Notes under the pieces: model-generated
Database searches by the model: none
The model's input: the letters and a program-made list of their open reading frames with translations, nothing else
Told to the model about the DNA's origin: nothing
In this document: positions 5,692-25,937 of the stretch, piece after piece
Layout of the letters: each line of letters begins with the position of its first letter
How positions within the stretch are numbered: the stretch's first letter is position 1
Made by a program: the position numbers and the translations under genes
Source of the DNA: Sedimentisphaera cyanobacteriorum
Lineage (GTDB): Bacteria > Planctomycetota > Phycisphaerae > Sedimentisphaerales > Sedimentisphaeraceae
Reading direction: 5' to 3'
Assembly (NCBI RefSeq): GCF_001997385.1
Contig: NZ_CP019633.1
Coordinates: forward strand, 1,170,001 to 1,202,000
Length of the DNA stretch: 32,000 nt

Positions 5692-7284
5692 TCAATAGCG
5701 TCCAATGCGTTTTGGTCCTGTATCCATTGCGATTACCGTGTCGTCAAAGAGCTTCTTGAGCCCTTTGAAGTCCACCGGAACGTCCTCTCCCGTCGGCGTA
5801 TCAGAGAGAATCGGCATCTGGTTTTCCAGCGCTTTCATGGTTTCCTCGAAACTCTGCTTCAGCAAAGTGAGTCTTGTTTCCTCATATTTCGGGTTGTCCC
5901 ACAGGTTTGTGAATTCGTAGGGATCATTCTTCATATCATACAGTTCGCCATGTTCGTGGCCGTGATATACGCACAGCTTGTAATCTTCCGTTCTGAGCAT
6001 AGTCCCCCATGTGGATTTGGCGTTGGACGATCTCGGCTTTGCCGCATCATAGAACTCACAGCGTACGAACTTCCTGTGCTTGTGAGGGTCAGTCATGCCA
6101 GTCAGGATAGGAAGAAGGCTCTTACCCTGCATATATTTTGGAACCGAGTTGCCGGTCAGCTCCATCAGCGTCGGAGCTATATCTGTTGATTCGACAAGTG
6201 CCTTGCTTCTCAAACCTTTCTTGAACTTGCCCGGCCACCAGAATATCAGCGGAACTCTTACCAGCCCCTCATAGAAACGACAGCCTTTTGCATTCAGGCC
6301 GTGATCGCCACAGCTATCGCCATGATCGGAAGTGAAAATGATCAGAGTGTTGTCAAGCTGTGCGGTATCTTCCAGAGCCTTGAGCATGCGGCCGATGTTC
6401 TCGTCGATCAATTCAATCTGAGCCCAATACTTGGCCTGCCGAAGCTTGCCACCCTTACCGGAAGTCTTCTTGGGACGGGACTGAAAAAACACATCCTTCA
6501 GCATCTCTTGTTGTGTTAGATCCGATTCCCTAAAAAGCGGTCCCGGTAGCTTGTTCAGGTCAAATCGCTTCACGTAATCAGCGGGCGGATTGAACGGGCC
6601 ATGCGGATCAAAAATGTTCACACTGAAAAGCCATGGTCGGCCTTTGTTATTCTTCATGAAATCAATGGCCATGTCCGAACACCATGTGGTCTGGTGACAG
6701 CGTGCATGTTCCGCGCCTGGCAGTCCCCTAAGGTCTTTGTACTTGTAACCTTGTTTCCACAACCAAACCAGATAGTCATTCTTGTCTCCGCCCTGATGCG
6801 GCGAATGACTGTAATGAAACTCGCTGTAGCCGTCATCCTTCGGACGCTTCTCCGGATTGTGTGCCATTGCGGTGGAAAGATGCAGTTTCCCTGACAGACC
6901 GCACAGATACCCTTCGTCCTTAAGCAATTTGGGCACCAGGGGTGCGACTTCCGGCCAGTGTGAAGCGCCGTTTTTGCAGCCTTTCACGCTGGAAGGGTAC
7001 ATACCGGTCAGGAATCCGGACCGGCTCGGCGTACAGAGCTGTGCGGTCACATGTGCATAGTCAAAAGAAACACCCTCTCCGACCAGTCGATCTAGATTCG
7101 GCGTATGAATATGTTTGTTTCCGAGTGCACGGATCGTATCCCAACGCTGCTGATCAGGACAGATCCACAGGATATTAGGACGGCTCTCAATGTTCTCCTT
7201 TGCAGACAGTCTTGTGCCGAGTTCCATACCTATCCCCAAAGCTGTACCAGTTTTGATGAATTGACGTCGTGTAATTCTGTTCAT
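5692..7284 (-). CDS. Cys-type (formylglycine) sulfatase, TAT-exported
   Basis: The sulfatase signature is CTPSRSGFLTG (C-x-P-x-R). The twin-arginine signal is MNRITRRQFIKTGTALGIG. AAGGAGA lies 5 nt upstream of the ATG at 7284. The ORF-track start at 7314 is 10 codons upstream and lacks an RBS. Confidence 0.9.
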   Translation of the reverse strand: MNRITRRQFIKTGTALGIGMELGTRLSAKENIESRPNILWICPDQQRWDTIRALGNKHIHTPNLDRLVGEGVSFDYAHVTAQLCTPSRSGFLTGMYPSSVKGCKNGASHWPEVAPLVPKLLKDEGYLCGLSGKLHLSTAMAHNPEKRPKDDGYSEFHYSHSPHQGGDKNDYLVWLWKQGYKYKDLRGLPGAEHARCHQTTWCSDMAIDFMKNNKGRPWLFSVNIFDPHGPFNPPADYVKRFDLNKLPGPLFRESDLTQQEMLKDVFFQSRPKKTSGKGGKLRQAKYWAQIELIDENIGRMLKALEDTAQLDNTLIIFTSDHGDSCGDHGLNAKGCRFYEGLVRVPLIFWWPGKFKKGLRSKALVESTDIAPTLMELTGNSVPKYMQGKSLLPILTGMTDPHKHRKFVRCEFYDAAKPRSSNAKSTWGTMLRTEDYKLCVYHGHEHGELYDMKNDPYEFTNLWDNPKYEETRLTLLKQSFEETMKALENQMPILSDTPTGEDVPVDFKGLKKLFDDTVIAMDTGPKRIGRY

Positions 7285-7412
7285 TTGATCTCCTTGCTCT
7301 TTAAATTTGCTCATAACTAATCAGGCAAAACCACCACAACCCTAGCTCTTGAAAAAAAACTAATGCATTTCTTCTAAAGTTACTAGGGCAAAAGCTTTTC
7401 AATCATTTTCGG

Positions 7413-7994
7413 TTATTGATTCTCTACCAGCCACTGCAAGTTAAACACAGCAACGTTTATCTGGTCATACAATTTCTTATCGCCGGCTTCATACAGCAGG
7501 TAAATCATCCCATCTTCATCAGCTGATAGGCAGGAATAAGCGCTGTGGCCTTGATCTATCAACCGCTTAACCGGCCATGTTGCGGCACCGTTGAAGGACG
7601 CCCAGACCGACATTTGATATCGCCAGCCGCCCTTCCAATCGGGCACACTGTAAATCAACACGTCTGAAAGCTCTTTAACTGCTTTGTCAGGAACTCTGAA
7701 CAGCCCCGCACGAATACCATATGAGGGTTTTCTGCCGTATTTGAAATAAAACGGCTCACCTGTTTCATACAATTCATCAGAAACTTGCCAATCAACATAT
7801 CTTTCGCCGTCATCATAGCTCCAAGCTATTCTGCGTTTATGATCGACCGACATATGAGATCTTGAGTTGTAATAGATTCGCCCGTCTGCAAGCTCCGCCA
7901 GAGCTGCCTCCCCTGTTCCAGTCATAATACCATCACTAACCTGCCAAGTCTTCCCTCGATCATCGCTGTACATTGAAGTGTTATAATTATACAT
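7413..7994 (-). CDS. Sialidase/BNR-like protein, segment 3 (C-terminal blades)
   Basis: The Asp box SDDRGKTW comes immediately after the break. The remainder is typical GH33 C-terminal strands (..[10 protein letters not shown].., ..[11 protein letters not shown]..). Confidence 0.75.
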
Positions 7995-9633: not shown

Positions 9634-9669
9634 AATAACAATCCTTTAAAGTTTTAATATTCTGGGAAT

Positions 9670-12348
9670 CTAATTTTTAGACCAAGTATTTTTGCCATTT
9701 AATGTATGCACTGTAAGGCCTTCGGTCTTTTCCGGAGTTTTCGGCATAAAAAGGCTCGCAGCGTATCCGATTACCACGCACAGGACTATTCCTATGGTTC
9801 CGTAGAGCAGCAGATGCACATCGGTATATTTCTGCACACAATACAGGCCTGCCGCTCCGAGAATTGCCCCTATCACAGCGCCGCCGCCGTTTGCGCGTGT
9901 TGTAAATATGCCTAAACAGAAAAGCCCGCACATCACGCCTCCCATCAGGCCGAGGATTGTCATAAACATATCCCACAGTGATTTGATGTCGGAGGTGGCA
10001 AACAGCAGAGCCAATACAACGCCCAGCAAACCGAACGTGAAAGTCATAATCCGGCCTAAACGAAGAAATGCTTTTTCGCCTTTCAACAAACTGAAAGGCC
10101 TTATGAAATCTGTTACAAAGGCAGTAGCTGTGCTGTTCATACTTGTGGAAACAGTGGATTGGGCAGCGGCAAACACGCCTGCCACTACTAAACCTGCAAT
10201 CCCTACGGGAAGTTCACGAGCGATAAAAAGAGGGAATATTGCATCGTTCTTGAATGTCGGGTCAATCTGGGCGGGATTGTCCTTGTAAAAAACAAACAGA
10301 GCTGTCCCAACGCCAAAGAAAAGTATTGAGGCGGGTATAATAGTTATAGAATTAGTCCAGATGGACTTTTTTGCAAATTTCATAGAGGATACAGACATAT
10401 ATCTCTGAACAACAGCCATATCTGAAGAATAAGGTACTAACTGCTGCCCGAGCCCGCCAAGAACCACGACCCACAGAGCCGTAGTTGCAAAGCTCACAGA
10501 AGAAAAGTCCCAGTTTACCAGATGGAACTTGTTGTCAGCAGAGGCCGTTTCAAGGAAACCTCCAAAACCTCCTTCAATGCCGTTAATAATCAATGCAAAG
10601 CTGAAAAAAGCACCACCAAGCAGAATGAATGTTTGAATTGCATCAGTCCATACAACCGCTTCAAGACCGCCCATAGTGCAGTAAATAAGGCTCAAGACGC
10701 CAATGGCCATAATACACTGTATCTGCGAGAGAGGCGTAATAGCTGCAAGAGCAAGAGCCGGCAAATACATAACTACTGCCATCCTTCCAATCTGGAAGAA
10801 GATAAACGATGCGCTTGCAAAAAGGCGGACAAAACGGTTGAAACGTTTCTCCAGATATTCATAAGCGCTGGTTGCATCAATCTTGCGAAAAAATGGAAGG
10901 AAAAATATTATAACAAACGGAGCCAAAACTACGGCGCACATATTAACCCAGAAATATACCCAATCTGTCATAAACGCCTTTGCCGGTATTGCTATGAATG
11001 TTATCGAGCTTAGCATTGTTGCAAAAATACTAAGACCTGCCACAAACCACGGCACGCGCTGGCCGCCTCGAAAATAGTCGTTGGAGTTTTTGTTTCGAAA
11101 TGAGAAAAACACTCCCACTCCGAGCAAAATACCGAGGTAAACCACAATCGTGGACAGATCGATCCATCCAATTGCTTTTTTGATCTGCAGCGGCTTTCCC
11201 GACCATATTTCAGCAGATCGAACTCTTGGCCGAACCTCACCTGAGGGGATAATAATCGGGTCGTTTACCATATCATCGCCCCACCGAACAGCGTTGGTTG
11301 TAACCTGATTAGAGGGAAGATTATCCGATTCTACCCACGTATCTGTGATAGTATGATAAACATAAATCTTTTTAGGAAAGCCTGGATGGTCGTCTTTAAG
11401 TTCATTCTCAAGTCCCCAAAAACTTCCGTCTGCACCTCCAAAGACAAATATATGGCTCTGGCCTACACCAATAGCTGTACCTGCCATGACACTGCTTGGA
11501 AGTGATTTCCTTTTCCGCCATGGATCTAAAGGACCGTTATAGGTTTTCGTATCAGGGTTGTACTGTTCAGGGTCAAACACAAGTGGGTTAAACTCATACA
11601 CGTCTTTAAGGAATTTCACTTCACCTTCTTTGCTGGCGGCTCTGCCGCTCATAATGTAAATGCAGTCTGTCCTGCCATTGTGCTGAACAGCAGTTATATT
11701 GAATGCTCTCGGACTTCCCGGCCAAGGCGGGAGCTTTTGCCAACTAAGGTTATCAGGCTCATCAATCTGCGATAAATCCAGACACCAGAAATTCTTCATT
11801 GCAGTTTCAAGGCCTCTGCCTGTTGTTCCGCCGGCAACATAAATCCTGCTGCCTATTTTTGCTGCATCGCCATAAACGCAGCGGGAAGGCAGAGAAGGCA
11901 AATCCTTCTTTTCAATTGTTTTGCTTTGCGGATTCCAGCTCAGCATAAAGACATCAGAGTAAGCTCTTTTCGAATCGTTCCCGCCCATACATACTACGCC
12001 GTGTTCGGTGGAAACAGATGCTCCATAGGCAAGCGGACGAGGAAGCGAGAAACCTGTATGCCACTGGAAACCGGAGTCAGACTCTGGGGCTTTAGTTAAA
12101 ACATAAATGTCATTATGCCATTGCTTATCAGATTCCCATACAGGTTTTGGGAAGTTAGCCCCGCCTGCGAGGATAAGGGCATCGTTATGAACTCCTGAAA
12201 ACATCCCTGCCCTGCCGAGCGAATCGGGCAACTCAGGCAGCTCAGTCCAGTCCATATATCTTGGTGAAACCGCTTCATCATTTGCCGCATAACAGGCAAT
12301 AGATAAGAACAAAACAAAAACATATATCAATTTTTCAAAAATTTTCAT
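9670..12348 (-). CDS. Fusion protein: N-terminal NanM/YjhT-like Kelch sialic-acid mutarotase domain + C-terminal sodium:solute symporter (SSS family, SiaT-like)
   Basis: Signal peptide is [21 protein letters not shown]. Residues ~30-385 are Kelch-type and paralogous to ORF 17293-18444 ([33 protein letters not shown] vs [33 protein letters not shown]). Residues ~395-892 are polytopic and SSS-like (many TM helices, [35 protein letters not shown]). Confidence 0.9.
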   Translation of the reverse strand: [892 protein letters not shown]

Positions 12349-12393
12349 AAAGCCACTCTCTTAAATATCATTTCATATTCCAAATAATGAAAA

Positions 12394-13515: not shown

Positions 13516-13555
13516 TTATCAATCATCTGTTTTATGTATTCATAAAAATTAGCAG

Positions 13556-14482: not shown

Positions 14483-14493
14483 TCCTTGGCCTT

Positions 14494-17196: not shown

Positions 17197-17292
17197 CTTA
17201 AAAATTCTAAATAAAATTATTTTTTGTATTTCAAATTAATTCAGCTATTTTGCGTCTTTTATATTTACAGGCCTTGCTAATAATTATTTCAA

Positions 17293-18444: not shown

Positions 18445-19564
18445 GTGTAAATTTTGAAAAAATTATCTTTGAATATCTAAAACCTTTGCCACCCTCATAC
18501 AAACAAGCTATCTTACCATTATCTAATACGGTTAGAGATGAATAAGCCGCTGGTCCTTCATGAATGGTTCTCTTATGACTCCAAGTCTTTGCTCCATCAT
18601 AACTAACTCTAACTGTCATGTTGGTACGCTTTTTAGAGTCAGGATTGGAGAACAAAATAATGTCCTTATCATTATTCTTATTTGGGGCATACCTTATAAT
18701 ACTTGCTTGACAAGTTGGTTCATTGAGATTAGATTTGTATGACACATAGTCCCAAGTTTCTCCGCAATTAGTGCTGAATGACAAGGCCCTGCTGCCCCTG
18801 TAACGTGAGTTGCGAGAATTCAACAAAACCTTCCCATCAAGAAGCTCTACCACCTGACTTTCATTCAATCCAGGGCGTGCAACATCACTGAGTTTCCATG
18901 TCTTGCCATGATCATCACTGTATATTACATGCGCCCCCTGTTGAAACTTTTTGTACTCACAGCTAATTGTGTGGTTTGCTGGTATAACCAAACGACCTTT
19001 CTTCTTGCCGTACTTGAGTTGTATTCCAGTCCCAGGTCCTGTAGCGTACCATCTCCAATAATCTCGACGGACAGAATCACTGATATTATTAGGTTTTGTC
19101 CACGTAAGCCCATCGTCCTCAGATTTACTAATATAAGGAATACGAGGATGCTTACTTTCCCCTGCAACAATTCCCTTTAAATGATCACTGCCGTAATTCC
19201 ATGTTAAACCAAGCCAAATAGTGCCAGTTTGTCTATCTACTACTGGACAAGGATTTCCACAAGTATTATCGCCATCATCCCATATTACAACCTGCTTAGA
19301 CCAAGACTCACCATTATCCTCGCTTCGTTTCATTAACAAATCTATATCACCTTCATCTCCCACACCATCCTTTCTTCCTTCACAAAAGGCTAATAGAGTA
19401 CCTTTATTTGTTCTTATAATTGAAGGAATTCTGTAAGTGTTATAGCCGTTCTCGTGCCTCACAAAAAGATCAGTGTACTCAATCTCATTTTTATCATTAC
19501 CTTCTGCAAAAACAGCAACAGATACTACAAACATAAACAAACAAAAATAATTCTTAAAAGTCAT
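18416..19564 (-). CDS. GH33 exo-alpha-sialidase (secreted)
   Basis: The FRIP motif is YRIPSIIRT. Five Asp-box-like repeats are SEDNGESW, SEDDGLTW, SDDHGKTW, STNCGETW, SYDGAKTW. Signal peptide is MTFKNYFCLFMFVVSVAVFA. Confidence 0.92.
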   Translation of the reverse strand: MTFKNYFCLFMFVVSVAVFAEGNDKNEIEYTDLFVRHENGYNTYRIPSIIRTNKGTLLAFCEGRKDGVGDEGDIDLLMKRSEDNGESWSKQVVIWDDGDNTCGNPCPVVDRQTGTIWLGLTWNYGSDHLKGIVAGESKHPRIPYISKSEDDGLTWTKPNNISDSVRRDYWRWYATGPGTGIQLKYGKKKGRLVIPANHTISCEYKKFQQGAHVIYSDDHGKTWKLSDVARPGLNESQVVELLDGKVLLNSRNSRYRGSRALSFSTNCGETWDYVSYKSNLNEPTCQASIIRYAPNKNNDKDIILFSNPDSKKRTNMTVRVSYDGAKTWSHKRTIHEGPAAYSSLTVLDNGKIACLYEGGKGFRYSKIIFSKFTLDWIIDGKK

Positions 19565-19653
19565 TAGAAAACCTCAAAATAAATAACAATTGATTAATTA
19601 AATTCCTGAAAAACTGTTTTAGTAACACCCAAAATCGTTATTGTTACTTCAGG

Positions 19654-22455
19654 CTAATCGCCCCAATTTGATGCCATTATTACTAAATCACGAATATCGA
19701 CAATGCCGTCTTTATTCAAATCTCCTGAATATAAACTTATATAATTCTTATAATCAGCTTTACTAACTAAAACCTCATCAATGTAACCTTGGAATATTCT
19801 GTTATCCTCATTGAAATGGCCTATTACAACATTTGCATTCAATTCAACGTCAGATTTGAGGGTATTGTCCTGCTGTGCTTCCAATTTACCATCTAAAATT
19901 ATTACAAATTTATAGTCAGCAATGTCTTTGGCAAAAACTACTTCATGCCATTTGTTATCACTCACATTAGTAGTTCCTTCAACTTTAACAGTATTTCCAT
20001 CCGTATCGCTAACAAAAAACTGCAATACACCATTTCTAATTCTTGTCCACCAAGATGATTCTCCAGGGCCAACATCCCTTGCAACCAAGGCGCCTGAATT
20101 ATCGGTACCCCCACTGCTATGTTTATTAGTCCTGAATACCGCAGATATAAAGAAAGGCGATTCCGATTCAATGTTAAAATAATTCAATAATGTGCCTCTT
20201 GTATCGAAGTCGTGATTTCTTATCACTATTCCGTTACCATTACCATTCAAATGCAATGCAACACTCCCTGAACTCGAGGAACTTCCTTCTGCAAAACCCA
20301 GCTCACCTTCAGTTCTTCCATGAAAGCCCTTCCCTTTTTTGTCGTTCACTTTATATGGAGCTGCTTTTATATTTTGGTCAAGATCAAATTCCTCAAAGTC
20401 ATACATAAACAAAACTTTGCTGTATCTGTTATTTCTCAGAGGGGGAAATTTCTCAAAACCTTCAATCCCCTCTCTAGGTACTCTGTAGACCATTAAATCT
20501 TTTGGCCTTATCCAACGATCCCCTATCATCAGATTAACCATTGGGAAAATGTAGCTTTCATCAACATACATTCCTAAATCGTTAAATCTCCAAGGCAGCC
20601 CTTGAAAATCATCCACCGTCATCAAATACTGCCATGTTTCCATATCATCTTCGGTTTTGGCAAGAGCAAGTCTTTCTCTAGGCAAAGCCGGATGCGGCCA
20701 AGCATCTGGGTCAGAATAAGTCCAGAACAAAAATATTTCGTTCGTATTATCATCTCTTCTGACATTAAATGCATTCATAGGAGAGATGATAGGCATTATA
20801 TTAATGTCGGTTGACCATGTAGCTCCTCCATCTGAGGAATCTGCATACAAAAGTCTTCCCATATCACTACGGGCAACCAACCTTACTTGCCCGTTGTTCA
20901 ATTCAACAACCTGAGCTTCTTGCAGATTAAAACCATTAGTAGTTGACCTATCAAGGACGTTTGACTTTGTCCATGTTAGTCCATCATCGTCGCTGTAATA
21001 AGTTGTAACGCCACCCACGGCTTCATCATATTGGGTCCCTGGGTTAATAAATATCCTACCATTACTGATTTGAGAAATTTTACTGTTCATCACTTTATGC
21101 TTTTTTGGAGCTTGATTAACCCAAATAATATCGCTCCAAGAAGATCCTTCATCATTTGAAATTTTAACTCCCAATTTTCTCAAATTATTTGGTTGTTTTA
21201 CATTAAACATTGCCAGAAGCCTACCAGAATTTAAGTTAAGAATATTTTTACTGCTTTTGCTACCCAAAGAATCAAAAATATCTGTCCCATTCCATGTAAG
21301 TCCTTCATCATCTGAGGAAAGATAACTAGAGCCTACATGCAGAATCAATTCATTATTAACCCTATTCATATCTCCCATTGCTGAATTTTCAAAACAAAAC
21401 ATCTTATAATTTTTAAGATGTTTATCATTGCCCTCATAACTTAAATCATCTATGTTTACTATAGCTCCAGAAGCCCCAAATACTATACCTCCATAGTTAG
21501 TGTTACGCAGTGATTTACTTTCTAGTACTAAGCTGCCGTCTATGTAAAATAGAATGTTTATTTTGTCGATAACAACCTTAAAGTCATACCACTTATTGGA
21601 CTGTATATCCAGTGATGAGCTGTTTCTTAACTTTTCCTTAAGCCACCCGTCTATCAATTCCCATCGCTTTTCTGATGTATCATAAATCAGGGAGACCTTG
21701 TAAACATGATTGCTGTCAATATTGTGCCTTAAGGAAATTTCAAAGTGAGAATGAGGGGCAGAATAAAGAATATTAAAACGCCCTTCTAGGACAGTGTCTC
21801 TTGAAAAACAATTGATTTTAACTTCGGAAGGATTGTTTATTGAATAAAGTTGAAGGTATTTATTGCTTCCCGAACTAACAACGGTATTGACACCTGAAAT
21901 ATTTTGCCATCCAGTATCTTTAAAATTCAGCATGTTATCAAAAGAGTAACTTTCAGAAAAAACAGGTTCTTCATTTCGGTAAACAAGCCTATTCCCATAG
22001 AGTTCATTATACTTTTCGTCGTACTTTTCAATAAGAGCTTGTTTTTGCCCAACCCAGATCTCAGCCTTTGTAAGCCAAAACCCCTTATCAGAACCATTTC
22101 GCGAATTTGAAAATGTGAACTGAAGTTCATTATTACCAGTTATTAATTCATCTTTTATCCAAACAAAGCCGCGTTGTTTGCCTGTAGCACTAAAAAGCTC
22201 AGGAGGAGGTGTTACCGTAATACCATTAATTACCAGCCCCAATTCATCAAAATTATTAATATCTACGGTTTCGATAACAAGCATATAATTCATATTTTGA
22301 TCTAAAGAGTTTATTTCAAAATTTAATTCCTCCTGCTGTGCCTGATCAGTCAACTCCAAAGGTAATTTATCTTGATTCGGGCTTAGAATTGTATATGAAA
22401 ATAGCCGGGAACTTAACAGTAAAACAATAGATACTCGATATATACATGCAATCAT
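19654..22455 (-). CDS. 933 aa secreted multidomain protein: N-terminal beta-sandwich modules, BNR/sialidase-like propeller, LamG domain, dockerin-like tail
   Basis: It carries a signal peptide. A DUF1080/LamG-like block is ..WYDFKVVIDKINILFYIDGSLV... Asp boxes are SDDEGLTW, SNDEGSSW, SDDDGLTW, SSDGGATW, TEDDMETW. The LamG block is ..NKWHEVVFAKD..VIILDGKLEA..FQGYIDEVLVS. The C-terminus is GDLNKDGIVDIRDLVIMASNWGD. Confidence 0.85.
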   Translation of the reverse strand: MIACIYRVSIVLLLSSRLFSYTILSPNQDKLPLELTDQAQQEELNFEINSLDQNMNYMLVIETVDINNFDELGLVINGITVTPPPELFSATGKQRGFVWIKDELITGNNELQFTFSNSRNGSDKGFWLTKAEIWVGQKQALIEKYDEKYNELYGNRLVYRNEEPVFSESYSFDNMLNFKDTGWQNISGVNTVVSSGSNKYLQLYSINNPSEVKINCFSRDTVLEGRFNILYSAPHSHFEISLRHNIDSNHVYKVSLIYDTSEKRWELIDGWLKEKLRNSSSLDIQSNKWYDFKVVIDKINILFYIDGSLVLESKSLRNTNYGGIVFGASGAIVNIDDLSYEGNDKHLKNYKMFCFENSAMGDMNRVNNELILHVGSSYLSSDDEGLTWNGTDIFDSLGSKSSKNILNLNSGRLLAMFNVKQPNNLRKLGVKISNDEGSSWSDIIWVNQAPKKHKVMNSKISQISNGRIFINPGTQYDEAVGGVTTYYSDDDGLTWTKSNVLDRSTTNGFNLQEAQVVELNNGQVRLVARSDMGRLLYADSSDGGATWSTDINIMPIISPMNAFNVRRDDNTNEIFLFWTYSDPDAWPHPALPRERLALAKTEDDMETWQYLMTVDDFQGLPWRFNDLGMYVDESYIFPMVNLMIGDRWIRPKDLMVYRVPREGIEGFEKFPPLRNNRYSKVLFMYDFEEFDLDQNIKAAPYKVNDKKGKGFHGRTEGELGFAEGSSSSSGSVALHLNGNGNGIVIRNHDFDTRGTLLNYFNIESESPFFISAVFRTNKHSSGGTDNSGALVARDVGPGESSWWTRIRNGVLQFFVSDTDGNTVKVEGTTNVSDNKWHEVVFAKDIADYKFVIILDGKLEAQQDNTLKSDVELNANVVIGHFNEDNRIFQGYIDEVLVSKADYKNYISLYSGDLNKDGIVDIRDLVIMASNWGD

Positions 22456-22511
22456 AATTTTATCCTATTTCATTTCATTAATTCAAAAAAAACCCATAGC
22501 CTAAAAACATA

Positions 22512-23357
22512 TTAGTATTCTTTGGGTATATAATGAAGACGGCCAGATAGATTAACAAGCCAGAGTTCCTGAAGTTCGCTGCTATCATATGTTCTAACAC
22601 TTCCGTCATTATATCCTGCATTTACTTTAATATCTGGCCTCTCCCTATCTGGATCAAATTTATTATAGTATAACGCGTTATTCCGTCTCTTTTGACCATT
22701 TTCCATAGGGTGAGTCGACATCCAACAAAATTGATATCCAGCTGCAGGATCATTCCAGCGAATAGCATCACAAGTTAAAAGACTGCTGTTTGTATTAATT
22801 GAAGGCCCTCTAAATGGCCGTTCATTCCTATCTCTATCATAGTACCCGTCGTAATTCCATAAGAGATCATATGAACCTGATATGCCTACCAAACCCTGTT
22901 CGTATAAATCTTGGAAGGTGTAATTTTGCCATGTCATTTTGTCAATATTTACTCGGCTCATAGGACAGATATAAACACCTGCCTCCGAAATGTAATCCAG
23001 CATAAATCTCGCTAGTATTCCACCTGCTAAACCATTACTTTGACCTGAAGCAGCGTTTTCTGGATGGTAATTTATCCTAGCAGGTTGTGTCCAAAAACCA
23101 TTGGATTGAAAATAACCACCAGAATCATTTTTTCTTTTACCTGCTATGCTAGGTGGATATCTGTTGCCATTATCTGCCTGATAAGCAGATACACCATAGA
23201 TAATTTGTTTCTGGTTTGAACTGCACATAACAAATTTTGCTTGATTACGTGCTTTTTGTAGTGCGGGCATAAGGATTGCCATTAACAAAGCTATTATTGA
23301 TATAACAACTAAAAGCTCTATCAGGGTAAATGCACTGAGATTATTTGTTTTTTTCAT
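22512..23357 (-). CDS. Prepilin-type N-terminal cleavage/methylation domain protein (type II secretion pseudopilin-like, DUF1559-like)
   Basis: The N-terminus is MKKTNNLSAFTLIELLVVISIIALLMAILMPALQKARNQAK, followed by CSSNQKQI, which is typical of the expanded PVC pseudopilin-like family. Confidence 0.85.
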   Translation of the reverse strand: MKKTNNLSAFTLIELLVVISIIALLMAILMPALQKARNQAKFVMCSSNQKQIIYGVSAYQADNGNRYPPSIAGKRKNDSGGYFQSNGFWTQPARINYHPENAASGQSNGLAGGILARFMLDYISEAGVYICPMSRVNIDKMTWQNYTFQDLYEQGLVGISGSYDLLWNYDGYYDRDRNERPFRGPSINTNSSLLTCDAIRWNDPAAGYQFCWMSTHPMENGQKRRNNALYYNKFDPDRERPDIKVNAGYNDGSVRTYDSSELQELWLVNLSGRLHYIPKEY

Positions 23358-23426
23358 AATATACCCTCAAGTCTTAAAAGCTTACAGCAAGCCAGCAAAG
23401 AGAGCTGGCTTGCTGCGAAAGTTTAA

Positions 23427-24602
23427 TTACTCGTATTCATTTGACCGGAGCCAATTCTCTGCTAGAATAGAAAAATCAAGCATATCAACCGAACAATTGC
23501 CATCTAAGTCACCTTCTTCTGTTGTTATTACGCATGATGGGGTATTGAAGCTCCAAACATCACCTTCGATAATAGTAGTTCCATCGTCGCCAAAGTCTAT
23601 CAAAGTATCTACCCTCCAATAATATGTTTGGCCTTTTTGGAGATTTGAAAAACTTATGGAGTTACCATCAGCGACTGCAGATTCTAAAACATTTGACATA
23701 TCTTCAGTATCTGAAAGATTTACAGTTTCAGATATAATATTTTGGCCTTCAATAGAAGACCAGCCGAAAACTTTATCGATAGGCACCATTACTGAATTGC
23801 TGGCTGGATCAGGATCAGAAGGCTTTCCTATTGGCTGTACAAATTCCTCTACGCTCAACGCTTCATCGGAAACCTTTATAAAATCAATCTTTCCATGAAA
23901 ACGTTTTGCTGCAGAATCGTAATCAGGATCCATTGCACCTATCTGAACAGGGTGCACAGAGCCATCGTTTTCGTAAGAAACGCCTGCCAACTCGTCATGT
24001 TCCGTTAAGACAAGCTCTCCATCTAAGTAGACCCTGTATTCTTCGGTAACACTGTCTCTTACCCATGCCACGTGGGTCCATTGCTCTGCACCAATACCGT
24101 TTTCTGATGCAACCTTACCCCCTGAATTAAGAACCTCGCCATCTTTGACATATTCCCTTGCTAAGAAATTAGGCCTCCCGTTTGGCTCATCAAACCTATA
24201 CCAGTATTCTCCAGGAAGACCTCTTTTGGCCAAAAAACCGTTCTCTGTCGTAATTGGTCCGGCAAGCCATATCAGACATTCAATTGTATAATCAACACCT
24301 AAATCAAAAGACGGCCCTCCTGCTGCTGGAATCAAAACCTGACCAGTTGATGGCGGAAAGAAATAGACAGCTGAACCGAAAGGATTATAATCTGGATTAC
24401 CCTCTACAAATGTCATATTAGGGTCGCTCTTAGCAGTTACTTCCAGATTAATGCCGTTTCCTGAAGTATCCAACACAGTCTCTCCAAGAGTTGCTTGTGT
24501 GCCCGGATCTTTCTCATCAAATGTCCAGTATGCAACTACACCTGCCTGAACAAAGGAAGCAAAAAAACATCCTAAAACTAATGTAAACATATTTTTTTTC
24601 AT
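23427..24602 (-). CDS. Secreted LamG (concanavalin-A-like lectin) domain protein with Fn3-like module and dockerin-like tail
   Basis: A signal peptide is present. The LamG pattern is AYWTFDE..DTSGNGINL..SAVYF..YTIECLIWL..WTHVAWVRD..YRVYLDGELV..FHGKIDFIKVSDEAL. This is followed by ..GQTYYWRVD..GDVWSFNT and a C-terminal GDLDGNCSVDMLDFSILAENW. Confidence 0.8.
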   Translation of the reverse strand: MKKNMFTLVLGCFFASFVQAGVVAYWTFDEKDPGTQATLGETVLDTSGNGINLEVTAKSDPNMTFVEGNPDYNPFGSAVYFFPPSTGQVLIPAAGGPSFDLGVDYTIECLIWLAGPITTENGFLAKRGLPGEYWYRFDEPNGRPNFLAREYVKDGEVLNSGGKVASENGIGAEQWTHVAWVRDSVTEEYRVYLDGELVLTEHDELAGVSYENDGSVHPVQIGAMDPDYDSAAKRFHGKIDFIKVSDEALSVEEFVQPIGKPSDPDPASNSVMVPIDKVFGWSSIEGQNIISETVNLSDTEDMSNVLESAVADGNSISFSNLQKGQTYYWRVDTLIDFGDDGTTIIEGDVWSFNTPSCVITTEEGDLDGNCSVDMLDFSILAENWLRSNEYE

Positions 24603-24764
24603 GATATTACCCTTAAAAACTTAAAAAATAGAAACTTAAATAATTGTTATTACCACACAACTTTAGTAAAAACACAGGAAAAATATTTCACATAGCAACC
24701 ATCCTTTCATGAATATTTACAGTTAGACTTTCTTTCATTATAAATCTTTTTTTCATTTTAAACG

Positions 24765-25937
24765 CTAAATCCGAGCAACCGTTTTGCCTTCATAAAGTGC
24801 AAGGGGTTTGTAAATCACTTCATCGGAATTTATAGGTCGCTGCCCTGTCCGGATCTCATCAAGCACCTTGGCAGCCCGTCCGCCCAGCTCGTATTCATCT
24901 ATCGTTACTGAAGTGAGTCTGTCTAGAAATACGCCGTTTCTCGCATGGCGATCTCCAAAGCCGATTAAAGAAACATCTTCCGGTATCCTGAGCCCCAACT
25001 CCTTAAGCGCAAACTGAACAAGTTCGGCTTCCTCATCGTCATTGCAGAAGATCGCAGTAATCGGATCTGCCCCGCCTACCATTGGCTTGAGAGCATCCAT
25101 CCGTTTCTGAAGCTGATAATCAGGACCTTCACCGGGGCCGTTACCGTAAAATATATGCTTTGCGGGCAGCTCAAGGCCACCTTCGGCGAGTGTTTTACGA
25201 AGGGTGTCTTCGTGTATTTCGGTCATCGTATAACGTGTGCGGGCAAAGTATGCGATTTGCCCGTGGCCTTTATCGAGCAATTCTCTGGCGGCAAGCCTTG
25301 AAACTTCCGCCGCATCCCAAGTGATAAGAGGCGCTGAAACGCCCGCTACTGGACGATGGCAGAAAACAACAGGGATGTCATGCTGCTGGAGCTGGGTGGC
25401 ATGGTAAGCCGGCGTTTGCGGCTTTAATGCCGGCACCATAGCCACTCCGGATACATTCTTATCAAGCATCTGCAGGACTATATCCCCCTGCTTGCTGATG
25501 TTGAAATCTGTATTGCAGAGAAGAACCTGATGACGGTTGAGGGCTGCGCAGTGATCGAAGCCCTTGGCCAAAACTGGGTATATACCGTGAGATATTTCAG
25601 GCAGCAGCAAACTGAGCACAGCAAGCTGCTCCTCTTTCCCGTGATTGAGCTGAGTGAAATAATTCCCCTTTCCGTGGACACGGCGAACGTAACCTTCTTT
25701 GACTAACTCATCTATAGCATTGCGGACGGTGTTTCTCGCTACGCCGAGTCTGTCAATAAGCATATTCTCAGAAGGCAGCGCTTGGCCTTGCTTAAAATGG
25801 CCGCTCTTGAGCTCATCAAGAAGAAACTCCTTGATGATTTCATATTTTGGGCGGCTTCGCCTGGCTCCTCTCAAGCCGGCCAGTTTGCTTTCTAATTTTC
25901 CGCTAAGTTCAATTTGCTCTGTAGGTAATTTTGCCAT
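24765..25937 (-). CDS. AraR-like transcriptional regulator (GntR-type winged HTH + LacI/PBP1-type sugar-binding domain)
   Basis: The N-terminal region is KYEIIKEFLLDELKSGHFKQGQALPSENMLIDRLGVARNTVRNAIDELVKEGYVRRVHGKGNYF. The C-terminal ~270 aa has periplasmic-binding-protein-like alternation (VSGVAMVP.., IPVVFCHRP.., ITAIFCNDDEEA.., VSLIGFGD). Confidence 0.85.
   Translation of the reverse strand: MAKLPTEQIELSGKLESKLAGLRGARRSRPKYEIIKEFLLDELKSGHFKQGQALPSENMLIDRLGVARNTVRNAIDELVKEGYVRRVHGKGNYFTQLNHGKEEQLAVLSLLLPEISHGIYPVLAKGFDHCAALNRHQVLLCNTDFNISKQGDIVLQMLDKNVSGVAMVPALKPQTPAYHATQLQQHDIPVVFCHRPVAGVSAPLITWDAAEVSRLAARELLDKGHGQIAYFARTRYTMTEIHEDTLRKTLAEGGLELPAKHIFYGNGPGEGPDYQLQKRMDALKPMVGGADPITAIFCNDDEEAELVQFALKELGLRIPEDVSLIGFGDRHARNGVFLDRLTSVTIDEYELGGRAAKVLDEIRTGQRPINSDEVIYKPLALYEGKTVARI

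What the first reader, a model, noticed from the sequence alone, without database searches (positions are those of the whole stretch)
5692..25937. About 20 kb one-strand sialoglycan/sulfoglycan locus lacking the canonical Nan catabolic core
Seen in sequence: 13 consecutive minus-strand reading frames with gaps of 11-162 bp or overlaps. In transcription order they are an AraR-like regulator, a LamG protein, a pseudopilin-like protein and a 933 aa BNR/LamG protein. Then come a GH33 sialidase (FRIP + 5 Asp boxes), a NanM-like mutarotase and a sulfatase, followed by two DHDPS/NAL-family aldolases, a URO-D-like protein and a NanM-SSS fusion, and finally a tandem sialidase (broken) and a second sulfatase. 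Established knowledge: GH33 + NanM + SSS + NAL is the capture, uptake and first cleavage set for Neu5Ac. C-x-P-x-R sulfatases remove sulfate esters from mucin-type and marine glycans. Inference: this is a PUL-like system for sulfated sialoglycans built without SusC/D. It also lacks nanK, nanE and nagA/nagB in the window and carries a second lyase paralog and a URO-D-like enzyme instead. The downstream chemistry may therefore differ from the textbook Nan pathway, or the substrate may be a modified nonulosonic acid (KDN, O-sulfated or O-methylated sialic acid).
Basis: partly seen in the sequence, partly recalled or inferred. Interest (0 to 1): 0.75.

Follow-up and report, generated by a model that had tools for sequence, protein, structure and literature searches.

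The report
Planctomycete sialic-acid harvesting gene cluster
This is a real 20-kb gene cluster in the anaerobic planctomycete Sedimentisphaera cyanobacteriorum that strips, imports and splits sialic-acid-type sugars from (probably sulfated) glycans; its conserved core holds two unusual aldolases and an uncharacterised enzyme with a uroporphyrinogen-decarboxylase/methyltransferase fold instead of the textbook downstream enzymes, and the same partners recur next to sialidase genes in many bacterial phyla.

Summary
The window comes from Sedimentisphaera cyanobacteriorum (Phycisphaerae).

The locus has two layers.
- A four-gene core: two DHDPS-family aldolases, a URO-D-fold protein and the NanM-SSS transporter. 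It is 82-91% identical in S. salicampi.
- Variable parts: both sulfatases, the extra NanM and the tandem-BNR gene are absent from the 21 kb read at S. salicampi's locus. The capture genes are only 29-55% identical.

The NanM-SSS fusion is the published SiaF transporter. The "broken" sialidase is one ~740-aa gene with two -1 frameshifts in A7 runs.

NanK, NanE, NagA and NagB are absent from the window. In 88 related loci I found none of them either, apart from one NagB match.

Neither aldolase has the canonical NAL GxDE/Ser208 signature.

The URO-D-like family sits beside GH33 sialidases, pyruvate aldolases and sialic-acid transporters across about ten phyla. In one Tannerellaceae operon it lies with a second URO-D protein, a corrinoid protein and a MetH-type activation protein.

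Verdict: a sialoglycan locus of a known kind, with an undescribed conserved catabolic module. The module's chemistry is unproven; demethylation of O-methylated nonulosonic acids is one option.

The parts
24765..25937 (-). AraR-type regulator (GntR winged-helix + LacI-type sugar-binding domain)
   Evidence: Pfam GntR 5e-16 and Peripla_BP_3 1.9e-20. The same regulator type was the commonest family among 83 otherwise unlabelled neighbours of the URO-D-like gene in other genomes: 9-10 members.
23427..24602 (-). Secreted LamG (ConA-like lectin) protein with a dockerin-like C-terminal tail; putative glycan-binding component
   Evidence: Pfam Laminin_G_3 1.5e-11 and a faint match to the Sialidase N-terminal lectin domain. 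N-terminal signal-like sequence.
22512..23357 (-). Prepilin-type N-methylation-motif protein (pseudopilin-like, weak DUF1559 match)
   Evidence: Pfam N_methyl 5.7e-6; NCBIfam GspG/ComGC N-terminal hits. 38% identical ortholog at the same position in S. salicampi.
19654..22455 (-). 933-aa BNR_2 + LamG protein; a distant, partial GH33-like propeller of uncertain activity
   Evidence: Pfam BNR_2 3e-21 and Laminin_G_3 4e-13. The PDB match covers only the middle blades (anhydrosialidase 4.9e-10). No RIP motif seen.
18416..19564 (-). GH33 exo-sialidase catalytic domain with signal peptide
   Evidence: PDB 1w8n/1eur sialidase 1.9e-55. YRIP, NSR, VRVS, YSSL and EL motifs align with the template. Five Asp boxes.
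17293..18444 (-). Free-standing NanM-type (cyclically permuted) sialate mutarotase
   Evidence: Pfam NANM 9e-43; NCBIfam mutarot_permut 6e-41. No counterpart in the 21 kb read at the S. salicampi locus.
15478..17196 (-). Tat-signal S1 sulfatase, nearest to S1_4 3S-Gal sulfatase BT4683
   Evidence: Pfam Sulfatase 1.7e-59. C-C-P-T-R motif preceded by Arg. PDB 7ALL 1.4e-111, and 7ALL = BT4683. Absent from the S. salicampi locus.
14494..15411 (-). DHDPS-family class-I aldolase 'DH1', C. glutamicum NAL (5C54)-like
   Evidence: Pfam DHDPS 2.8e-34; PDB 5c54 2.5e-25. Lys165 and Tyr137 equivalents present. G-N-E in place of GxDE. 89% identical in S. salicampi.
13556..14482 (-). DHDPS-family class-I aldolase 'DH2', a distinct subfamily conserved across phyla
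   Evidence: Pfam DHDPS 1.6e-18; best PDB hit is E. coli NAL at 5.5e-14. Lys165, Tyr137 and GTTGE kept; GxDE deleted; Ser208->Asn. Orthologs 54-76% identical in 15 loci of Planctomycetota, Bacteroidota and one MAG labelled Gammaproteobacteria.
12394..13515 (-). URO-D/MtaA-fold enzyme of unknown function (the 'anchor' family), cytoplasmic
   Evidence: No Pfam hit; NCBIfam MtaA/CmuA 6e-7, below cutoff. AF2 pLDDT 95; Foldseek 4ay8 MtaA 1.9e-10 and UROD about 1e-9. Invariant H283-x-C285-G, D305, Q238-H239, R97, R250/D252 at the ends of the barrel strands. 91% identical in S. salicampi.
9670..12348 (-). SiaF: NanM mutarotase domain fused to a SiaT-type Na+/sialate symporter
   Evidence: Pfam NANM + SSF; PDB 5nv9 8e-111. 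Carboxylate ligands S60, T63 and R135 conserved; T58M, F78Y, G81V, Q82N, F243G, N247Q, Q250P. Fusion family described in PMC8461474.
7413..9633 (-). Tandem two-propeller BNR/GH33-like gene (~740 aa) interrupted by two -1 frameshifts in A7 runs (9176-9182 and 8008-8014)
   Evidence: The 733-aa ortholog L001:2663-4864 aligns as aa 5-147, 150-531 and 533-731 to three frames, at 56-76% identity. Sequence at the breaks.
5692..7314 (-). Tat-signal S1 sulfatase, nearest to GlcNAc-6-sulfatases (S1_11-like)
   Evidence: Pfam Sulfatase 1.5e-47 + SGSH_C; C-T-P-S-R motif; PDB 5g2v 7e-49 and 7p24 1.3e-40.
5555..5668 (.). 114-nt copy (91%) of the siaF 3' end (9685-9798). The two copies lie at the edges of the tandem-BNR + sulfatase-2 block.
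   Evidence: the repeat finder family D1, spacing 4130 nt; read directly.

Best explanation
The locus is a PVC-style glycan-utilisation cluster (no SusC/D) for sialic-acid-type (nonulosonic) sugars. It has two layers.

Outer, fast-evolving layer. An AraR-type regulator controls a surface capture set: a LamG lectin-like protein, a prepilin-type protein and a BNR-LamG protein. It also controls exported trimming enzymes: a GH33 sialidase, a NanM mutarotase, two formylglycine sulfatases and a now frameshifted two-propeller BNR enzyme. These bind the glycan, remove sulfate esters from the underlying Gal/GlcNAc, and release the terminal acid sugar.

Inner, conserved layer. SiaF converts the released alpha-anomer to the beta-anomer and imports it with Na+. 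Two Schiff-base (class I) pyruvate aldolases and a URO-D-fold, probably metal-dependent (His-x-Cys) enzyme then process it in the cytoplasm, yielding pyruvate plus a hexose or hexosamine.

Shown: domain identities, conservation of catalytic residues, synteny and conservation patterns, and the recurrent linkage of the URO-D-like family with sialidases, aldolases and transporters.

Inferred: co-transcription, the substrate, the order of the steps, and the reaction of the URO-D-like enzyme.

My ranking for the URO-D-like enzyme's reaction:
(a) About 0.35: methyl/alkyl transfer that removes an O-methyl-type modification from the imported acid or from its cleavage product.
(b) About 0.25: a replacement for the missing post-lyase ManNAc-processing step.
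(c) The remainder: another hydrolase or isomerase role, for example on an anhydro or ester form.
For: - Thirteen same-strand genes with 11-162 bp gaps.
- GH33 with a complete set of motifs. NanM appears twice.
- The SSS domain matches the Neu5Ac transporter SiaT at 8e-111 and keeps its carboxylate-binding triad.
- Both aldolases keep the Schiff-base Lys and the catalytic Tyr.
- The core genes DH1, DH2, URO-D-like and SiaF are 82-91% identical and syntenic in S. salicampi. The outer genes are 29-55% identical or absent.
- Among 48 loci of at least 12 kb from other genomes that encode the URO-D-like family, 26 have GH33/BNR genes, 25 have a DHDPS or RraA pyruvate aldolase, 25 have SiaF or an MFS transporter, and 20 have all three. 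A GH33 gene is the commonest immediate same-strand neighbour, at 26 of about 150 flanking positions.
- A NanQ/YhcH (DUF386) sialate anomerase lies in some of these loci.
- The sulfatases are nearest to mucin-type 3S-Gal and 6S-GlcNAc enzymes. A Bacteroidota PUL repeats the combination of sialidases, two sulfatases, SiaF and the URO-D-like gene.
Against: - There is no expression or biochemical data. The promoter and terminator scans are at chance level.
- The transporter's N-acetyl and glycerol-tail contacts differ from SiaT, and neither aldolase carries the canonical NAL GxDE/Ser208 residues. Neu5Ac itself is therefore not established as the substrate.
- The locus lacks galactosidases and hexosaminidases needed to use the rest of a mucin-type glycan.
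- One sialidase-like gene is frameshifted, which may mean the accessory part is decaying.
- 15 of the 48 large loci with the URO-D-like gene show no sialic-acid gene within 10 kb.
Confidence: 0.7

Rival explanations
1. This is an ordinary Neu5Ac pathway split over the genome. DH1 is a CgNal-type N-acetylneuraminate lyase. ManNAc is handled by an AGE-type epimerase, a ROK kinase and NagA/NagB encoded elsewhere, as in the Bacteroides paradigm. The URO-D-like protein and DH2 are accessory or unrelated passengers.
For: - DH1's best solved relative is the C. glutamicum enzyme deposited as a DHDPS/NAL-family protein.
- Severi et al. describe Bacteroidetes in which NanE-II and RokA act outside the nan cluster.
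- The rest of the genome could not be searched.
Against: - The URO-D-like and DH2 genes are as conserved between the two Sedimentisphaera species (91% and 82%) as the transporter is. They also recur together, 50-60% identical, in other phyla. That is not how passenger genes behave.
- No NanK, NanE or NagA was found in 88 related loci, and AGE was not a recurrent neighbour.
Confidence: 0.3
2. The conserved module handles a different or modified 2-keto-3-deoxy acid sugar, such as KDN, O-methylated Neu/KDN or a Kdo-type acid. The URO-D-fold enzymes would be corrinoid-dependent methyltransferases that strip O-methyl groups, so that the special aldolases (DH2, RraA-type) can cleave the sugar.
For: - The fold and the best family hits are to MtaA/CmuA methylcobamide methyltransferases.
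- The H-x-C-G motif is shared with PF01208 paralogs.
- Two to four URO-D-fold genes sit in single sialidase-rich PULs: four in L001, three in L089.
- Operon L044 reads GH33, anchor, URO-D, corrinoid protein (B12-binding 2.8e-31), MetH-type activation protein, DH2. The corrinoid pair sits inside the otherwise adjacent UROD2-DH2 pair.
- L094 links a URO-D protein and a corrinoid protein with a SASA-family esterase and a BNR-LamG protein.
- The N-acetyl pocket of SiaF is altered, and the canonical NAL residues are missing.
- With KDN as substrate, no NanK/E or NagA/B would be needed.
Against: - A corrinoid protein is present in only 1 of about 88 loci.
- The window has no corrinoid protein, no second URO-D gene and no pterin-binding methyltransferase.
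- The anchor family lacks the second Cys/His zinc ligand of MtaA-type enzymes.
- Close relatives of the L044 corrinoid protein mostly sit in cassettes unrelated to sialidases.
- No literature precedent was found.
Confidence: 0.3
3. The cluster is a recombinational mosaic, not a functional unit. It would have been assembled next to tRNA genes, a resolvase remnant and an IS element, with parts already decaying. The one-strand layout would then overstate functional coherence.
For: - tRNA-Arg and tRNA-Gly plus a resolvase fragment lie at one end.
- An IS4-type element and a truncated GH167 lie at the other end.
- A duplicated siaF 3' end flanks one block.
- One gene carries two frameshifts.
- G+C ranges from 34% to 52% within the locus, against 59% in the first 4 kb of the window.
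Against: - All added genes belong to the same theme: sialidase-like, mutarotase, and sulfatases of glycan type.
- The same combinations recur in unrelated genomes.
- The core is intact and highly conserved.
- Mosaic assembly is the usual way glycan loci diversify. It does not exclude function.
Confidence: 0.15

Closest known systems
SiaF-containing nan clusters of Bacteroidetes and Planctomycetes/Verrucomicrobia (ST5 SSS family; Severi et al. 2021, PMC8461474)
   Same: - N-terminal, signal-peptide-bearing, cyclically permuted NanM domain fused to a SiaT-type SSS permease.
- Linked to a sialidase and a NanA-like aldolase.
- Found in Planctomycetes.
   Different: - That paper defined the clusters by NanA/NanK/NanE/NanE-II. 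In the passages I read it does not mention a URO-D-fold partner or a second, non-canonical aldolase.
- Here NanK, NanE and NagA/B are absent in cis.
- Six of the non-carboxylate SiaT ligand positions are changed.
Bacteroides nanLET / Tannerella nan sialic-acid loci (lyase, AGE-type epimerase NanE-II, MFS transporter, plus NanOU SusC/D-like uptake)
   Same: A compact operon of lyase, one further cytoplasmic enzyme and a transporter. It lies next to sialidases and relies on kinase and NagA/B genes encoded elsewhere.
   Different: - No SusC/D-type outer-membrane pair.
- An SSS-NanM fusion replaces the MFS transporter.
- A URO-D-fold protein sits where the epimerase would be.
- There are two non-canonical aldolases instead of one NAL.
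E. coli nanATEK-yhcH / nagBA pathway
   Same: The logic of sialidase-independent uptake followed by cleavage to pyruvate, and the NanM mutarotase concept. NanQ/YhcH homologs occur in a few related loci.
   Different: NanK, NanE, NagA and NagB were not detected in the window or in the related loci, apart from one NagB match. The aldolases are only about 22% identical to NanA and lack D191, E192 and S208.
MtaA/CmuA methylcobamide methyltransferases and uroporphyrinogen decarboxylase (URO-D superfamily, PF01208)
   Same: A distorted TIM barrel (Foldseek TM about 0.6, E 1e-10 to 1e-9). An H-x-C-G motif at a strand end followed by Asp about 20 residues later. One operon carries a corrinoid protein and an activation protein.
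   Different: - 11-14% identity.
- Below the Pfam and NCBIfam cutoffs.
- The distal Cys ligand is absent.
- Normally no corrinoid protein lies in cis.
- The genomic context is glycan and sialic-acid use, not methanogenesis, haem synthesis or aryl-ether demethylation.
Mucin O-glycan sulfatases of Bacteroides thetaiotaomicron (BT4683 S1_4 3S-Gal; BT4656 and BT3177 S1_11 6S-GlcNAc)
   Same: Sulfatase 15478-17196 matches BT4683 (7ALL) at 1.4e-111 and keeps the Arg before the formylglycine Cys. Sulfatase 5692-7314 matches 5G2V and 7P24 at 7e-49 and 1e-40.
   Different: No SulfAtlas assignment or specificity test was possible. The host is a hypersaline-mat anaerobe, not a gut symbiont. The sulfatases are not part of the conserved core.

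Membership tests
GH33 exo-sialidase (protein 18416-19564) | Six-bladed propeller with an (F/Y)RIP motif and repeated Asp boxes | tested here: met
   BNR_2 5e-38 over the full length. YRIP and five S-x-D-x-G-x-T-W boxes read in the sequence.
GH33 exo-sialidase (protein 18416-19564) | Catalytic Arg triad, acid/base Asp and the Tyr/Glu nucleophile pair | tested here: met
   In the alignment to the M. viridifaciens sialidase (1.9e-55), the YRIP, EL(x)DG, NSR, (V/I)R(V/M)S and YS(S/T)L segments are matched residue for residue. Assigning these segments to catalytic roles rests on my own knowledge.
GH33 exo-sialidase (protein 18416-19564) | Hydrolysis of a sialoside (Neu5Ac, Neu5Gc or KDN) | not testable with these tools
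   Needs an enzyme assay.
N-acetylneuraminate lyase subfamily of DHDPS (proteins 14494-15411 and 13556-14482) | Schiff-base Lys165 and Tyr137 (E. coli numbering) | tested here: met
   Both are present in DH1 and DH2 in the MAFFT alignment with E. coli NanA.
N-acetylneuraminate lyase subfamily of DHDPS (proteins 14494-15411 and 13556-14482) | NAL-specific sugar-binding residues G189-x-D191-E192 and S208 (roles taken from my own knowledge of NAL structures) | tested here: not met
   DH1 has G-N-E-P and Val at position 208. DH2 has the D-E positions deleted and Asn at 208. In the same alignment, canonical NALs from related loci (L004, L005) do have GxDE and S208.
N-acetylneuraminate lyase subfamily of DHDPS (proteins 14494-15411 and 13556-14482) | Score above the curated NCBIfam NAL equivalog cutoff | tested here: not met
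   NF003164: 81 bits (DH1) and 51.5 bits (DH2) against a cutoff of 281.
SiaF / ST5 sialic-acid SSS transporter (protein 9670-12348) | N-terminal NanM (permuted mutarotase) domain fused to an SSS permease related to SiaT | tested here: met
   NANM 1.7e-29 + SSF 2.6e-40; 5nv9 8e-111. Definition taken from PMC8461474.
SiaF / ST5 sialic-acid SSS transporter (protein 9670-12348) | Neu5Ac-binding residues of SiaT (T58, S60, T63, Q82, R135; F78, G81, F243; N247, Q250) | tested here: inconclusive
   The carboxylate ligands S60, T63 and R135 are kept. T58M, F78Y, G81V, Q82N, F243G, N247Q and Q250P are changed. This fits an acid sugar but does not establish Neu5Ac.
URO-D superfamily / MtaA-type methyltransferase (protein 12394-13515) | URO-D-type distorted (beta/alpha)8 barrel | tested here: met
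   AF2 pLDDT 95.1. Foldseek probability 1.00 to 4ay8 (MtaA), 4zr8/1jpi (UROD) and MetE.
URO-D superfamily / MtaA-type methyltransferase (protein 12394-13515) | Match to PF01208 or the MtaA/CmuA models above the curated cutoff | tested here: not met
   No Pfam hit at E <= 0.01. NCBIfam PRK06252 scores 28.7 bits against a cutoff of 244. A few family members carry a precomputed PF01208 hit.
URO-D superfamily / MtaA-type methyltransferase (protein 12394-13515) | Zinc site H-x-C ... (E/D) ... C (ligand pattern taken from my own knowledge of MtaA and MetE) | tested here: inconclusive
   H283-x-C285 and D305 are invariant in 36 sequences. No invariant distal Cys or His exists; the paralog family A3 has a near-invariant His363 instead.
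URO-D superfamily / MtaA-type methyltransferase (protein 12394-13515) | A cognate corrinoid protein as partner | tested here: not met
   None in the window. It is present in 1 of about 88 related loci (L044), and there inside the operon.
Type I (formylglycine) sulfatases (proteins 15478-17196 and 5692-7314) | C/S-x-P-x-R motif and the Sulfatase domain | tested here: met
   CCPTR and CTPSR in the sequences. PF00884 at 1.7e-59 and 1.5e-47.
Type I (formylglycine) sulfatases (proteins 15478-17196 and 5692-7314) | SulfAtlas subfamily and sulfate-ester specificity | not testable with these tools
   Only nearest solved relatives are available: 7ALL (BT4683, S1_4) and 5G2V/7P24.
Bacteroidota-type polysaccharide utilisation locus (PUL) | Adjacent SusC/SusD pair | tested here: not met
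   No TonB-dependent receptor or SusD family was found in any window ORF scanned. Bacteroidota relatives of the same module do have SusC/D.
Canonical Nan/Nag catabolic core | NanK, NanE (or AGE), NagA and NagB encoded with the lyase | tested here: not met
   tblastn with the E. coli proteins found nothing in the window. In 88 related loci it found 0 NanK, 0 NanE, 0 NagA and 1 NagB. AGE did not appear in eight Pfam-annotated contexts or among families shared by at least 2 of 83 unlabelled neighbours. The rest of the genome was not searched.

The most novel reading that the evidence does not exclude
The URO-D-fold 'anchor' enzyme and the DH2-type aldolase, joined in other genomes by a second URO-D paralog and an RraA-type aldolase, would define an unrecognised and widespread branch of nonulosonic-acid catabolism. 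It would replace the NanK/NanE/AGE route. At least in some bacteria it would use corrinoid-dependent methyl transfer to de-O-methylate modified sialic, KDN or Kdo-type acids before aldol cleavage. That would be the first anaerobic, cobalamin-based sugar demethylation tied to a glycan-utilisation locus.
Probability: 0.3. Interest if true: 0.8.

Novelty: new variant of a known kind. Interest (0 to 1): 0.6.

Why it matters
Sialic-acid use by bacteria is understood through two paradigms, the E. coli NanATEK route and the Bacteroides NanL/NanE-II route. Both are mostly studied in host-associated species.

This locus is one of many from sediment, digester and marine bacteria. They span Planctomycetota, Verrucomicrobiota, Lentisphaerota, Bacteroidota, Spirochaetota and other phyla. 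In these loci, sialidases and sialic-acid transporters travel with a different cytoplasmic enzyme set whose reactions are unknown.

Working out what the URO-D-fold enzyme and the DH2 aldolase do would show three things:
- how environmental bacteria consume nonulosonic acids, which are now known to be common in microbial and algal polymers;
- whether modified (methylated, sulfated, deaminated) forms need special enzymes;
- what function belongs to a protein family currently mis-annotated as 'methylcobalamin:coenzyme M methyltransferase' or 'uroporphyrinogen decarboxylase family protein'.

Both Sedimentisphaera species have complete genomes on record (2.95-Mb and 3.19-Mb contigs), and I recall both as cultured isolates, so the question can be tested directly.

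Tried and rejected
- Promoter and terminator scans of 5000-24999 gave counts at shuffle level: 55 vs 46.5±7.1 promoter-like sites, and 14 vs 16.1±3.6 terminator-like sites. They say nothing about operon structure.
- Rfam found only the two tRNAs.
- A k-mer and palindrome search of the intergenic spacers for a shared operator gave only short AT-rich matches. The best is a 12-nt inverted match between the region upstream of the regulator and the regulator-LamG spacer. I did not consider any of these convincing.
- Sequence search of the URO-D-like protein against the PDB found nothing. Only the fold search did.
- Literature searches linking URO-D or corrinoid enzymes to sialidases, NAL or PULs returned nothing relevant. 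Two Planctomycetota CAZyme surveys do not mention GH33 or sialic acid. A DUF1559/prepilin search was uninformative.
- I tested whether 'corrinoid protein next to the anchor family' is a recurrent arrangement. The L044 corrinoid protein pulled 80 metagenome loci. It is nearly always beside a URO-D protein (72/80) and an activation protein (67/80). Those URO-D proteins are only 25-35% identical to the L044 paralog, and none of the loci has the anchor family or DH2. The arrangement is rare, not general.
- The idea that the three BNR ORFs are separate, translationally coupled genes was rejected in favour of one frameshifted gene.
- The AFDB fold library was unavailable.
- A look-up of the Maribellus homolog's context failed.

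Full report
ORIGIN AND OBSERVATION

The URO-D-like protein of the window is 100% identical to a protein of Sedimentisphaera cyanobacteriorum on a 2.95-Mb contig. It is 91% identical to its S. salicampi ortholog. The window is therefore from this planctomycete of the class Phycisphaerae, which from memory is an anaerobe.

The ORF listing shows an unbroken series of minus-strand ORFs from 25937 to 5692, with gaps of 11-162 bp or short overlaps.
- an AraR-type regulator (GntR HTH + Peripla_BP_3);
- a LamG protein;
- a prepilin-type N_methyl protein;
- a 933-aa BNR_2/LamG protein;
- a GH33 sialidase with YRIP and five Asp boxes (1.9e-55 to the Micromonospora enzyme);
- a NanM mutarotase;
- a sulfatase (CCPTR);
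- two DHDPS-family proteins;
- a protein with no Pfam hit;
- a NanM-SSS fusion;
- three BNR ORFs;
- a second sulfatase (CTPSR).

The Pfam-less protein is a URO-D-fold enzyme. It gives weak NCBIfam MtaA/CmuA hits (6e-7). Its AlphaFold model has pLDDT 95, and its best structural matches are M. mazei MtaA (1.9e-10), several uroporphyrinogen decarboxylases (about 1e-9) and MetE. None of the window's ORFs is NanK, NanE, NagA, NagB, a ROK kinase or an AGE epimerase.

CORRECTIONS TO THE ANATOMY

The 'tandem sialidase (broken)' is one gene. A 733-aa two-propeller protein from a Bacteroidota-type PUL (L001) aligns end to end with the three ORFs in three frames, at 56-76% identity. Both breaks lie in A7 runs, at 9176-9182 and 8008-8014. 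One extra A restores the frame in each case. These are either real slippage mutations or homopolymer sequencing errors.

The NanM-SSS fusion is already described. It is the SiaF clade of ST5 sialic-acid transporters, reported as widespread in Bacteroidetes and Planctomycetes/Verrucomicrobia (PMC8461474).

- Its SSS half matches the Neu5Ac symporter SiaT at 8e-111.
- It keeps SiaT's carboxylate ligands Ser60, Thr63 and Arg135.
- It changes the residues that contact the anomeric OH, the glycerol tail and the N-acetyl methyl group: T58M, Q82N, F78Y, G81V, F243G, N247Q and Q250P.

TWO LAYERS

I compared the window with the S. salicampi locus (L003). The four-gene block DH1, DH2, URO-D-like and SiaF is syntenic, at 89%, 82%, 91% and 90% identity. 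The GH33 is 55% identical, the pseudopilin 38% and the BNR-LamG protein 29%. Both sulfatases, the free NanM and the tandem-BNR gene have no counterpart in the 21 kb read there.

- The tandem-BNR + sulfatase-2 block is bracketed by a 114-nt direct repeat (91%) of the siaF 3' end, at 5555-5668 and 9685-9798.
- Just beyond that block lie a resolvase fragment 77% identical to the intact S. salicampi resolvase, then tRNA-Gly and tRNA-Arg.
- Upstream of the regulator lies the C-terminal half of a GH167 glycosidase. It is cut off 160 bp from an IS4-type element with 31-nt inverted repeats.
- G+C is 34-40% across 17-24 kb, mostly 42-46% in the core, and 59% in the first 4 kb of the window.

The locus is thus a conserved uptake and cleavage core that has collected strain-specific capture and trimming genes.

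SULFATASES

Sulfatase 15478-17196 matches PDB 7ALL at 1.4e-111. 7ALL is BT4683, an S1_4 enzyme that removes 3-O-sulfate from Gal of LacNAc and tolerates sialylated O-glycans. Sulfatase 5692-7314 is nearest to GlcNAc-6-sulfatases, 5G2V at 7e-49 and 7P24 at 1.3e-40. Both start with twin-arginine-type signals.

A Bacteroidota PUL from a metagenome repeats the combination: SusC/D, SiaF, GH33, the URO-D-like gene, more BNR proteins and two sulfatases. Across all related loci, sulfatases are a minority feature, present in 6 of 48. 'Sulfated sialoglycan' is a reasonable reading for this strain, but it is not the defining property of the conserved system.

THE ALDOLASES ARE NOT CANONICAL NALs

I aligned both aldolases with E. 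coli NanA. Both keep the Schiff-base Lys165 and Tyr137.

- DH1 has GGSAGM and G-N-E-P. Its best solved relative is the C. glutamicum enzyme 5C54 (2.5e-25), which has G-S-E at the same place.
- DH2 keeps GTTGE. It has lost the D191-E192 positions and has Asn for Ser208.

Related loci contain three classes:
- canonical NALs with GxDE (13-15 loci);
- DH2-type proteins, which never have GxDE and are 54-76% identical between Planctomycetota and Bacteroidota (15 loci);
- DH1-type proteins (6 loci).

The window has DH1 and DH2 but no canonical NAL.

THE URO-D-LIKE FAMILY AND ITS COMPANY

The family has several hundred members: 561 clusters at 50% identity with E <= 1e-3, and 75 at <= 1e-30. An alignment of 36 members has invariant H283-x-C285-G, D305, Q238-H239, R97, D90-D91 and R250/D252. 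In the model these residues lie at the C-terminal ends of the barrel strands.

Profile comparison with a PF01208-positive paralog family from the same loci ('UROD2') aligns the HxCG, D..Q and xDD motifs at 95% probability. The distal Cys/His ligand of MtaA-type zinc sites has no invariant counterpart in the anchor family.

A scan of one genome per species returned 80 loci. They come from Planctomycetota, Verrucomicrobiota, Lentisphaerota/Victivallales, Bacteroidota, Spirochaetota, Calditrichota, Sumerlaeota, Chloroflexota, Armatimonadota, and one MAG each labelled Gammaproteobacteria and Oscillospiraceae.

I called ORFs, clustered them and built HMMs. Of the 48 loci of at least 12 kb:
- 26 carry GH33/BNR genes;
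- 25 carry a DHDPS- or RraA-type pyruvate aldolase;
- 25 carry SiaF or an MFS transporter;
- 20 carry all three;
- 20 carry at least one further URO-D paralog;
- 15 show none of the sialic-acid-related genes within 10 kb.

A GH33 gene is the commonest immediate same-strand neighbour, at 26 of about 150 flanking positions. If a genome has about ten sialidase genes among some 3,000 genes, my rough estimate is that chance would give well under 1%.

tblastn with E. coli NanK, NanE, NagA and NagC found nothing in 1.24 Mb of such loci. NagB matched once and NanQ/YhcH three times. The eight contexts with precomputed Pfam annotation show no AGE, ROK or NanE. A Pfam scan of 83 unlabelled neighbours of 340-450 aa found AraR-type regulators as the top family, and no AGE among families with two or more members.

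Bacteroidota versions share a recurrent architecture: SusC/D, GH33, (UROD2), GH33, anchor, RraA, GH33, MFS, DH2, UROD2. L001 carries four URO-D-fold genes, and L089 carries seven BNR_2 genes.

THE CORRINOID LEAD

One locus, a Tannerellaceae MAG (L044), reads as follows:
- SusD;
- GH33;
- the anchor;
- UROD2 (PF01208, 6e-26);
- a corrinoid protein (B12-binding 2.8e-31, B12-binding_2 1.6e-21);
- a MetH activation-domain protein (4e-13);
- DH2;
- an EamA transporter.

The corrinoid and activation genes sit exactly between UROD2 and DH2, which are adjacent in five other loci. This is the gene set of a corrinoid-dependent methyltransferase system, placed inside a sialidase and aldolase operon.

It is the only such case among about 88 loci. 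Close relatives of that corrinoid protein in metagenomes belong to a common URO-D + corrinoid + activation cassette, mostly from human-gut samples. Its URO-D proteins are only 25-35% identical to UROD2, and it lacks the anchor family and DH2. One of those loci (L094) couples the cassette to a SASA-family (sialate O-acetylesterase family) esterase and a BNR-LamG protein.

I found no paper on corrinoid-dependent sugar demethylation in glycan loci. The known sugar demethylase is an aerobic P450.

MECHANISM, WITH STATUS OF EACH STEP

1. Glycan binding by the LamG, prepilin-type and BNR-LamG proteins. Inferred from domains only.
2. Desulfation by two exported formylglycine sulfatases. Inferred from motifs and nearest relatives.
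3. Release of the terminal acid sugar by GH33. A strong inference, since all the sialidase motifs I checked align with the template.
4. Alpha-to-beta mutarotation by NanM and the NanM domain of SiaF, followed by Na+-coupled import. A strong inference by homology to SiaT and the published SiaF family.
5. Cytoplasmic processing by DH1, DH2 and the URO-D-fold enzyme, giving pyruvate plus a C6 sugar. The aldolase chemistry follows from the conserved Lys and Tyr. The substrate and the URO-D-fold reaction are unknown.
6. Further metabolism by genes outside the window. Unknown.

For the URO-D-fold enzyme I rank three options.
- Removal of a methyl-type modification, about 0.35. For: the fold, the HxC motif, the multiplicity of paralogs, and L044. 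Against: no corrinoid protein in cis in the window, and a zinc ligand is missing.
- Replacement of the ManNAc-processing step, about 0.25. For: its operon position between the aldolases and the transporter, and the consistent absence of NanE, NanK and AGE. Against: it is more often next to GH33 than next to aldolases, and the fold has no precedent for this reaction.
- Other hydrolase or isomerase roles. These take the remainder.

COMPARISON AND NOVELTY

As a sialidase + mutarotase + SiaF + aldolase locus, this belongs to a known kind.

In the searchable literature I did not find a description of:
- the conserved partnership with a URO-D-fold family and a DH2-type aldolase;
- the systematic absence of the canonical downstream enzymes from these loci;
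- the single corrinoid-containing operon.

I therefore rate the finding as a new variant of a known kind, with interest 0.6. The most novel reading is a cobalamin-linked or otherwise non-canonical nonulosonate pathway. I give that about 0.3 probability.

Noticed in passing
window 26339-27583 (-) and 27744-29735: The ORF upstream of the regulator is the C-terminal half (equivalent to residues ~380-762) of a GH167 glycosidase: PDB 6ptm 1.3e-40, 9whd 2.7e-39. Its N-terminal half is missing. The ORF starts 160 bp from an IS4-type element with 31-nt terminal inverted repeats (27744-27774 and 29705-29735) and a 586-aa DDE transposase. The missing half is not on the other side of the IS.
   Followed up: partly
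window 4756-5454: tRNA-Arg(CCG) at 4756-4830 (-) and tRNA-Gly(CCC) at 5006-5076 (+) are followed by a 104-aa resolvase/recombinase fragment at 5140-5454. The fragment is 77% identical to the C-terminus of an intact resolvase that sits directly after siaF in S. salicampi. The locus therefore ends in a recombination-prone spot in both species.
   Followed up: partly
window 5555-5668 and 9685-9798: A 114-nt direct repeat (91% identity) duplicates the 3' end of siaF on both sides of the 4.1-kb tandem-BNR + sulfatase block. This looks like the footprint of the insertion or recombination that added the block.
   Followed up: yes
window 9176-9182 and 8008-8014: Both frameshifts in the tandem-BNR gene are single-base losses in poly-A runs (A7 where A8 restores the frame). 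They could be real slippage or phase variation, or homopolymer sequencing errors. The gene's C-terminal part is 76% identical to a Bacteroidota ortholog, which is high for a cross-phylum comparison.
   Followed up: partly
window 1-4517: Three plus-strand genes for FG-GAP/ASPIC-repeat proteins, one with an esterase/PHB-depolymerase-like domain, have 58-59% G+C. The sialic-acid locus has 34-52%, and the S. salicampi locus 42-47%. This compositional outlier is possibly foreign DNA.
   Followed up: no
L044 2175-9496 (Tannerellaceae MAG DBFJSK010000209.1): An operon reads GH33, URO-D-like anchor, PF01208 URO-D, corrinoid protein (B12-binding), MetH-activation-domain protein, DH2-type aldolase, EamA transporter. 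It is a complete-looking corrinoid methyltransferase set inside a sialidase and aldolase cluster.
   Followed up: partly
L092-L171 (metagenome contigs, mostly human gut): A very common cassette holds a corrinoid protein, a MetH-type activation protein, a CobW-family GTPase and variable URO-D-family methyltransferases, often with an AraC regulator and sometimes an SSS transporter. Its substrate appears to be unknown. L094 couples it to a SASA-family esterase and a BNR-LamG protein.
   Followed up: partly
L001, L012-L014, L024, L038 (Bacteroidota loci): A recurrent PUL architecture reads SusC/D, GH33, (URO-D), GH33, anchor, RraA-like aldolase, GH33, MFS, DH2, URO-D. It has several sialidase-like paralogs and two to four URO-D-fold genes per locus. 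The anchor-RraA pair is separated by a median of about 4 bp.
   Followed up: partly
window 29912-30196 and 30361-31572: A 94-aa protein that looks like an RRM-type RNA-binding protein (read from the sequence only, not scanned) and a 403-aa radical-SAM protein with a C-terminal helix-hairpin-helix domain lie beyond the IS element. They appear unrelated to the locus.
   Followed up: no
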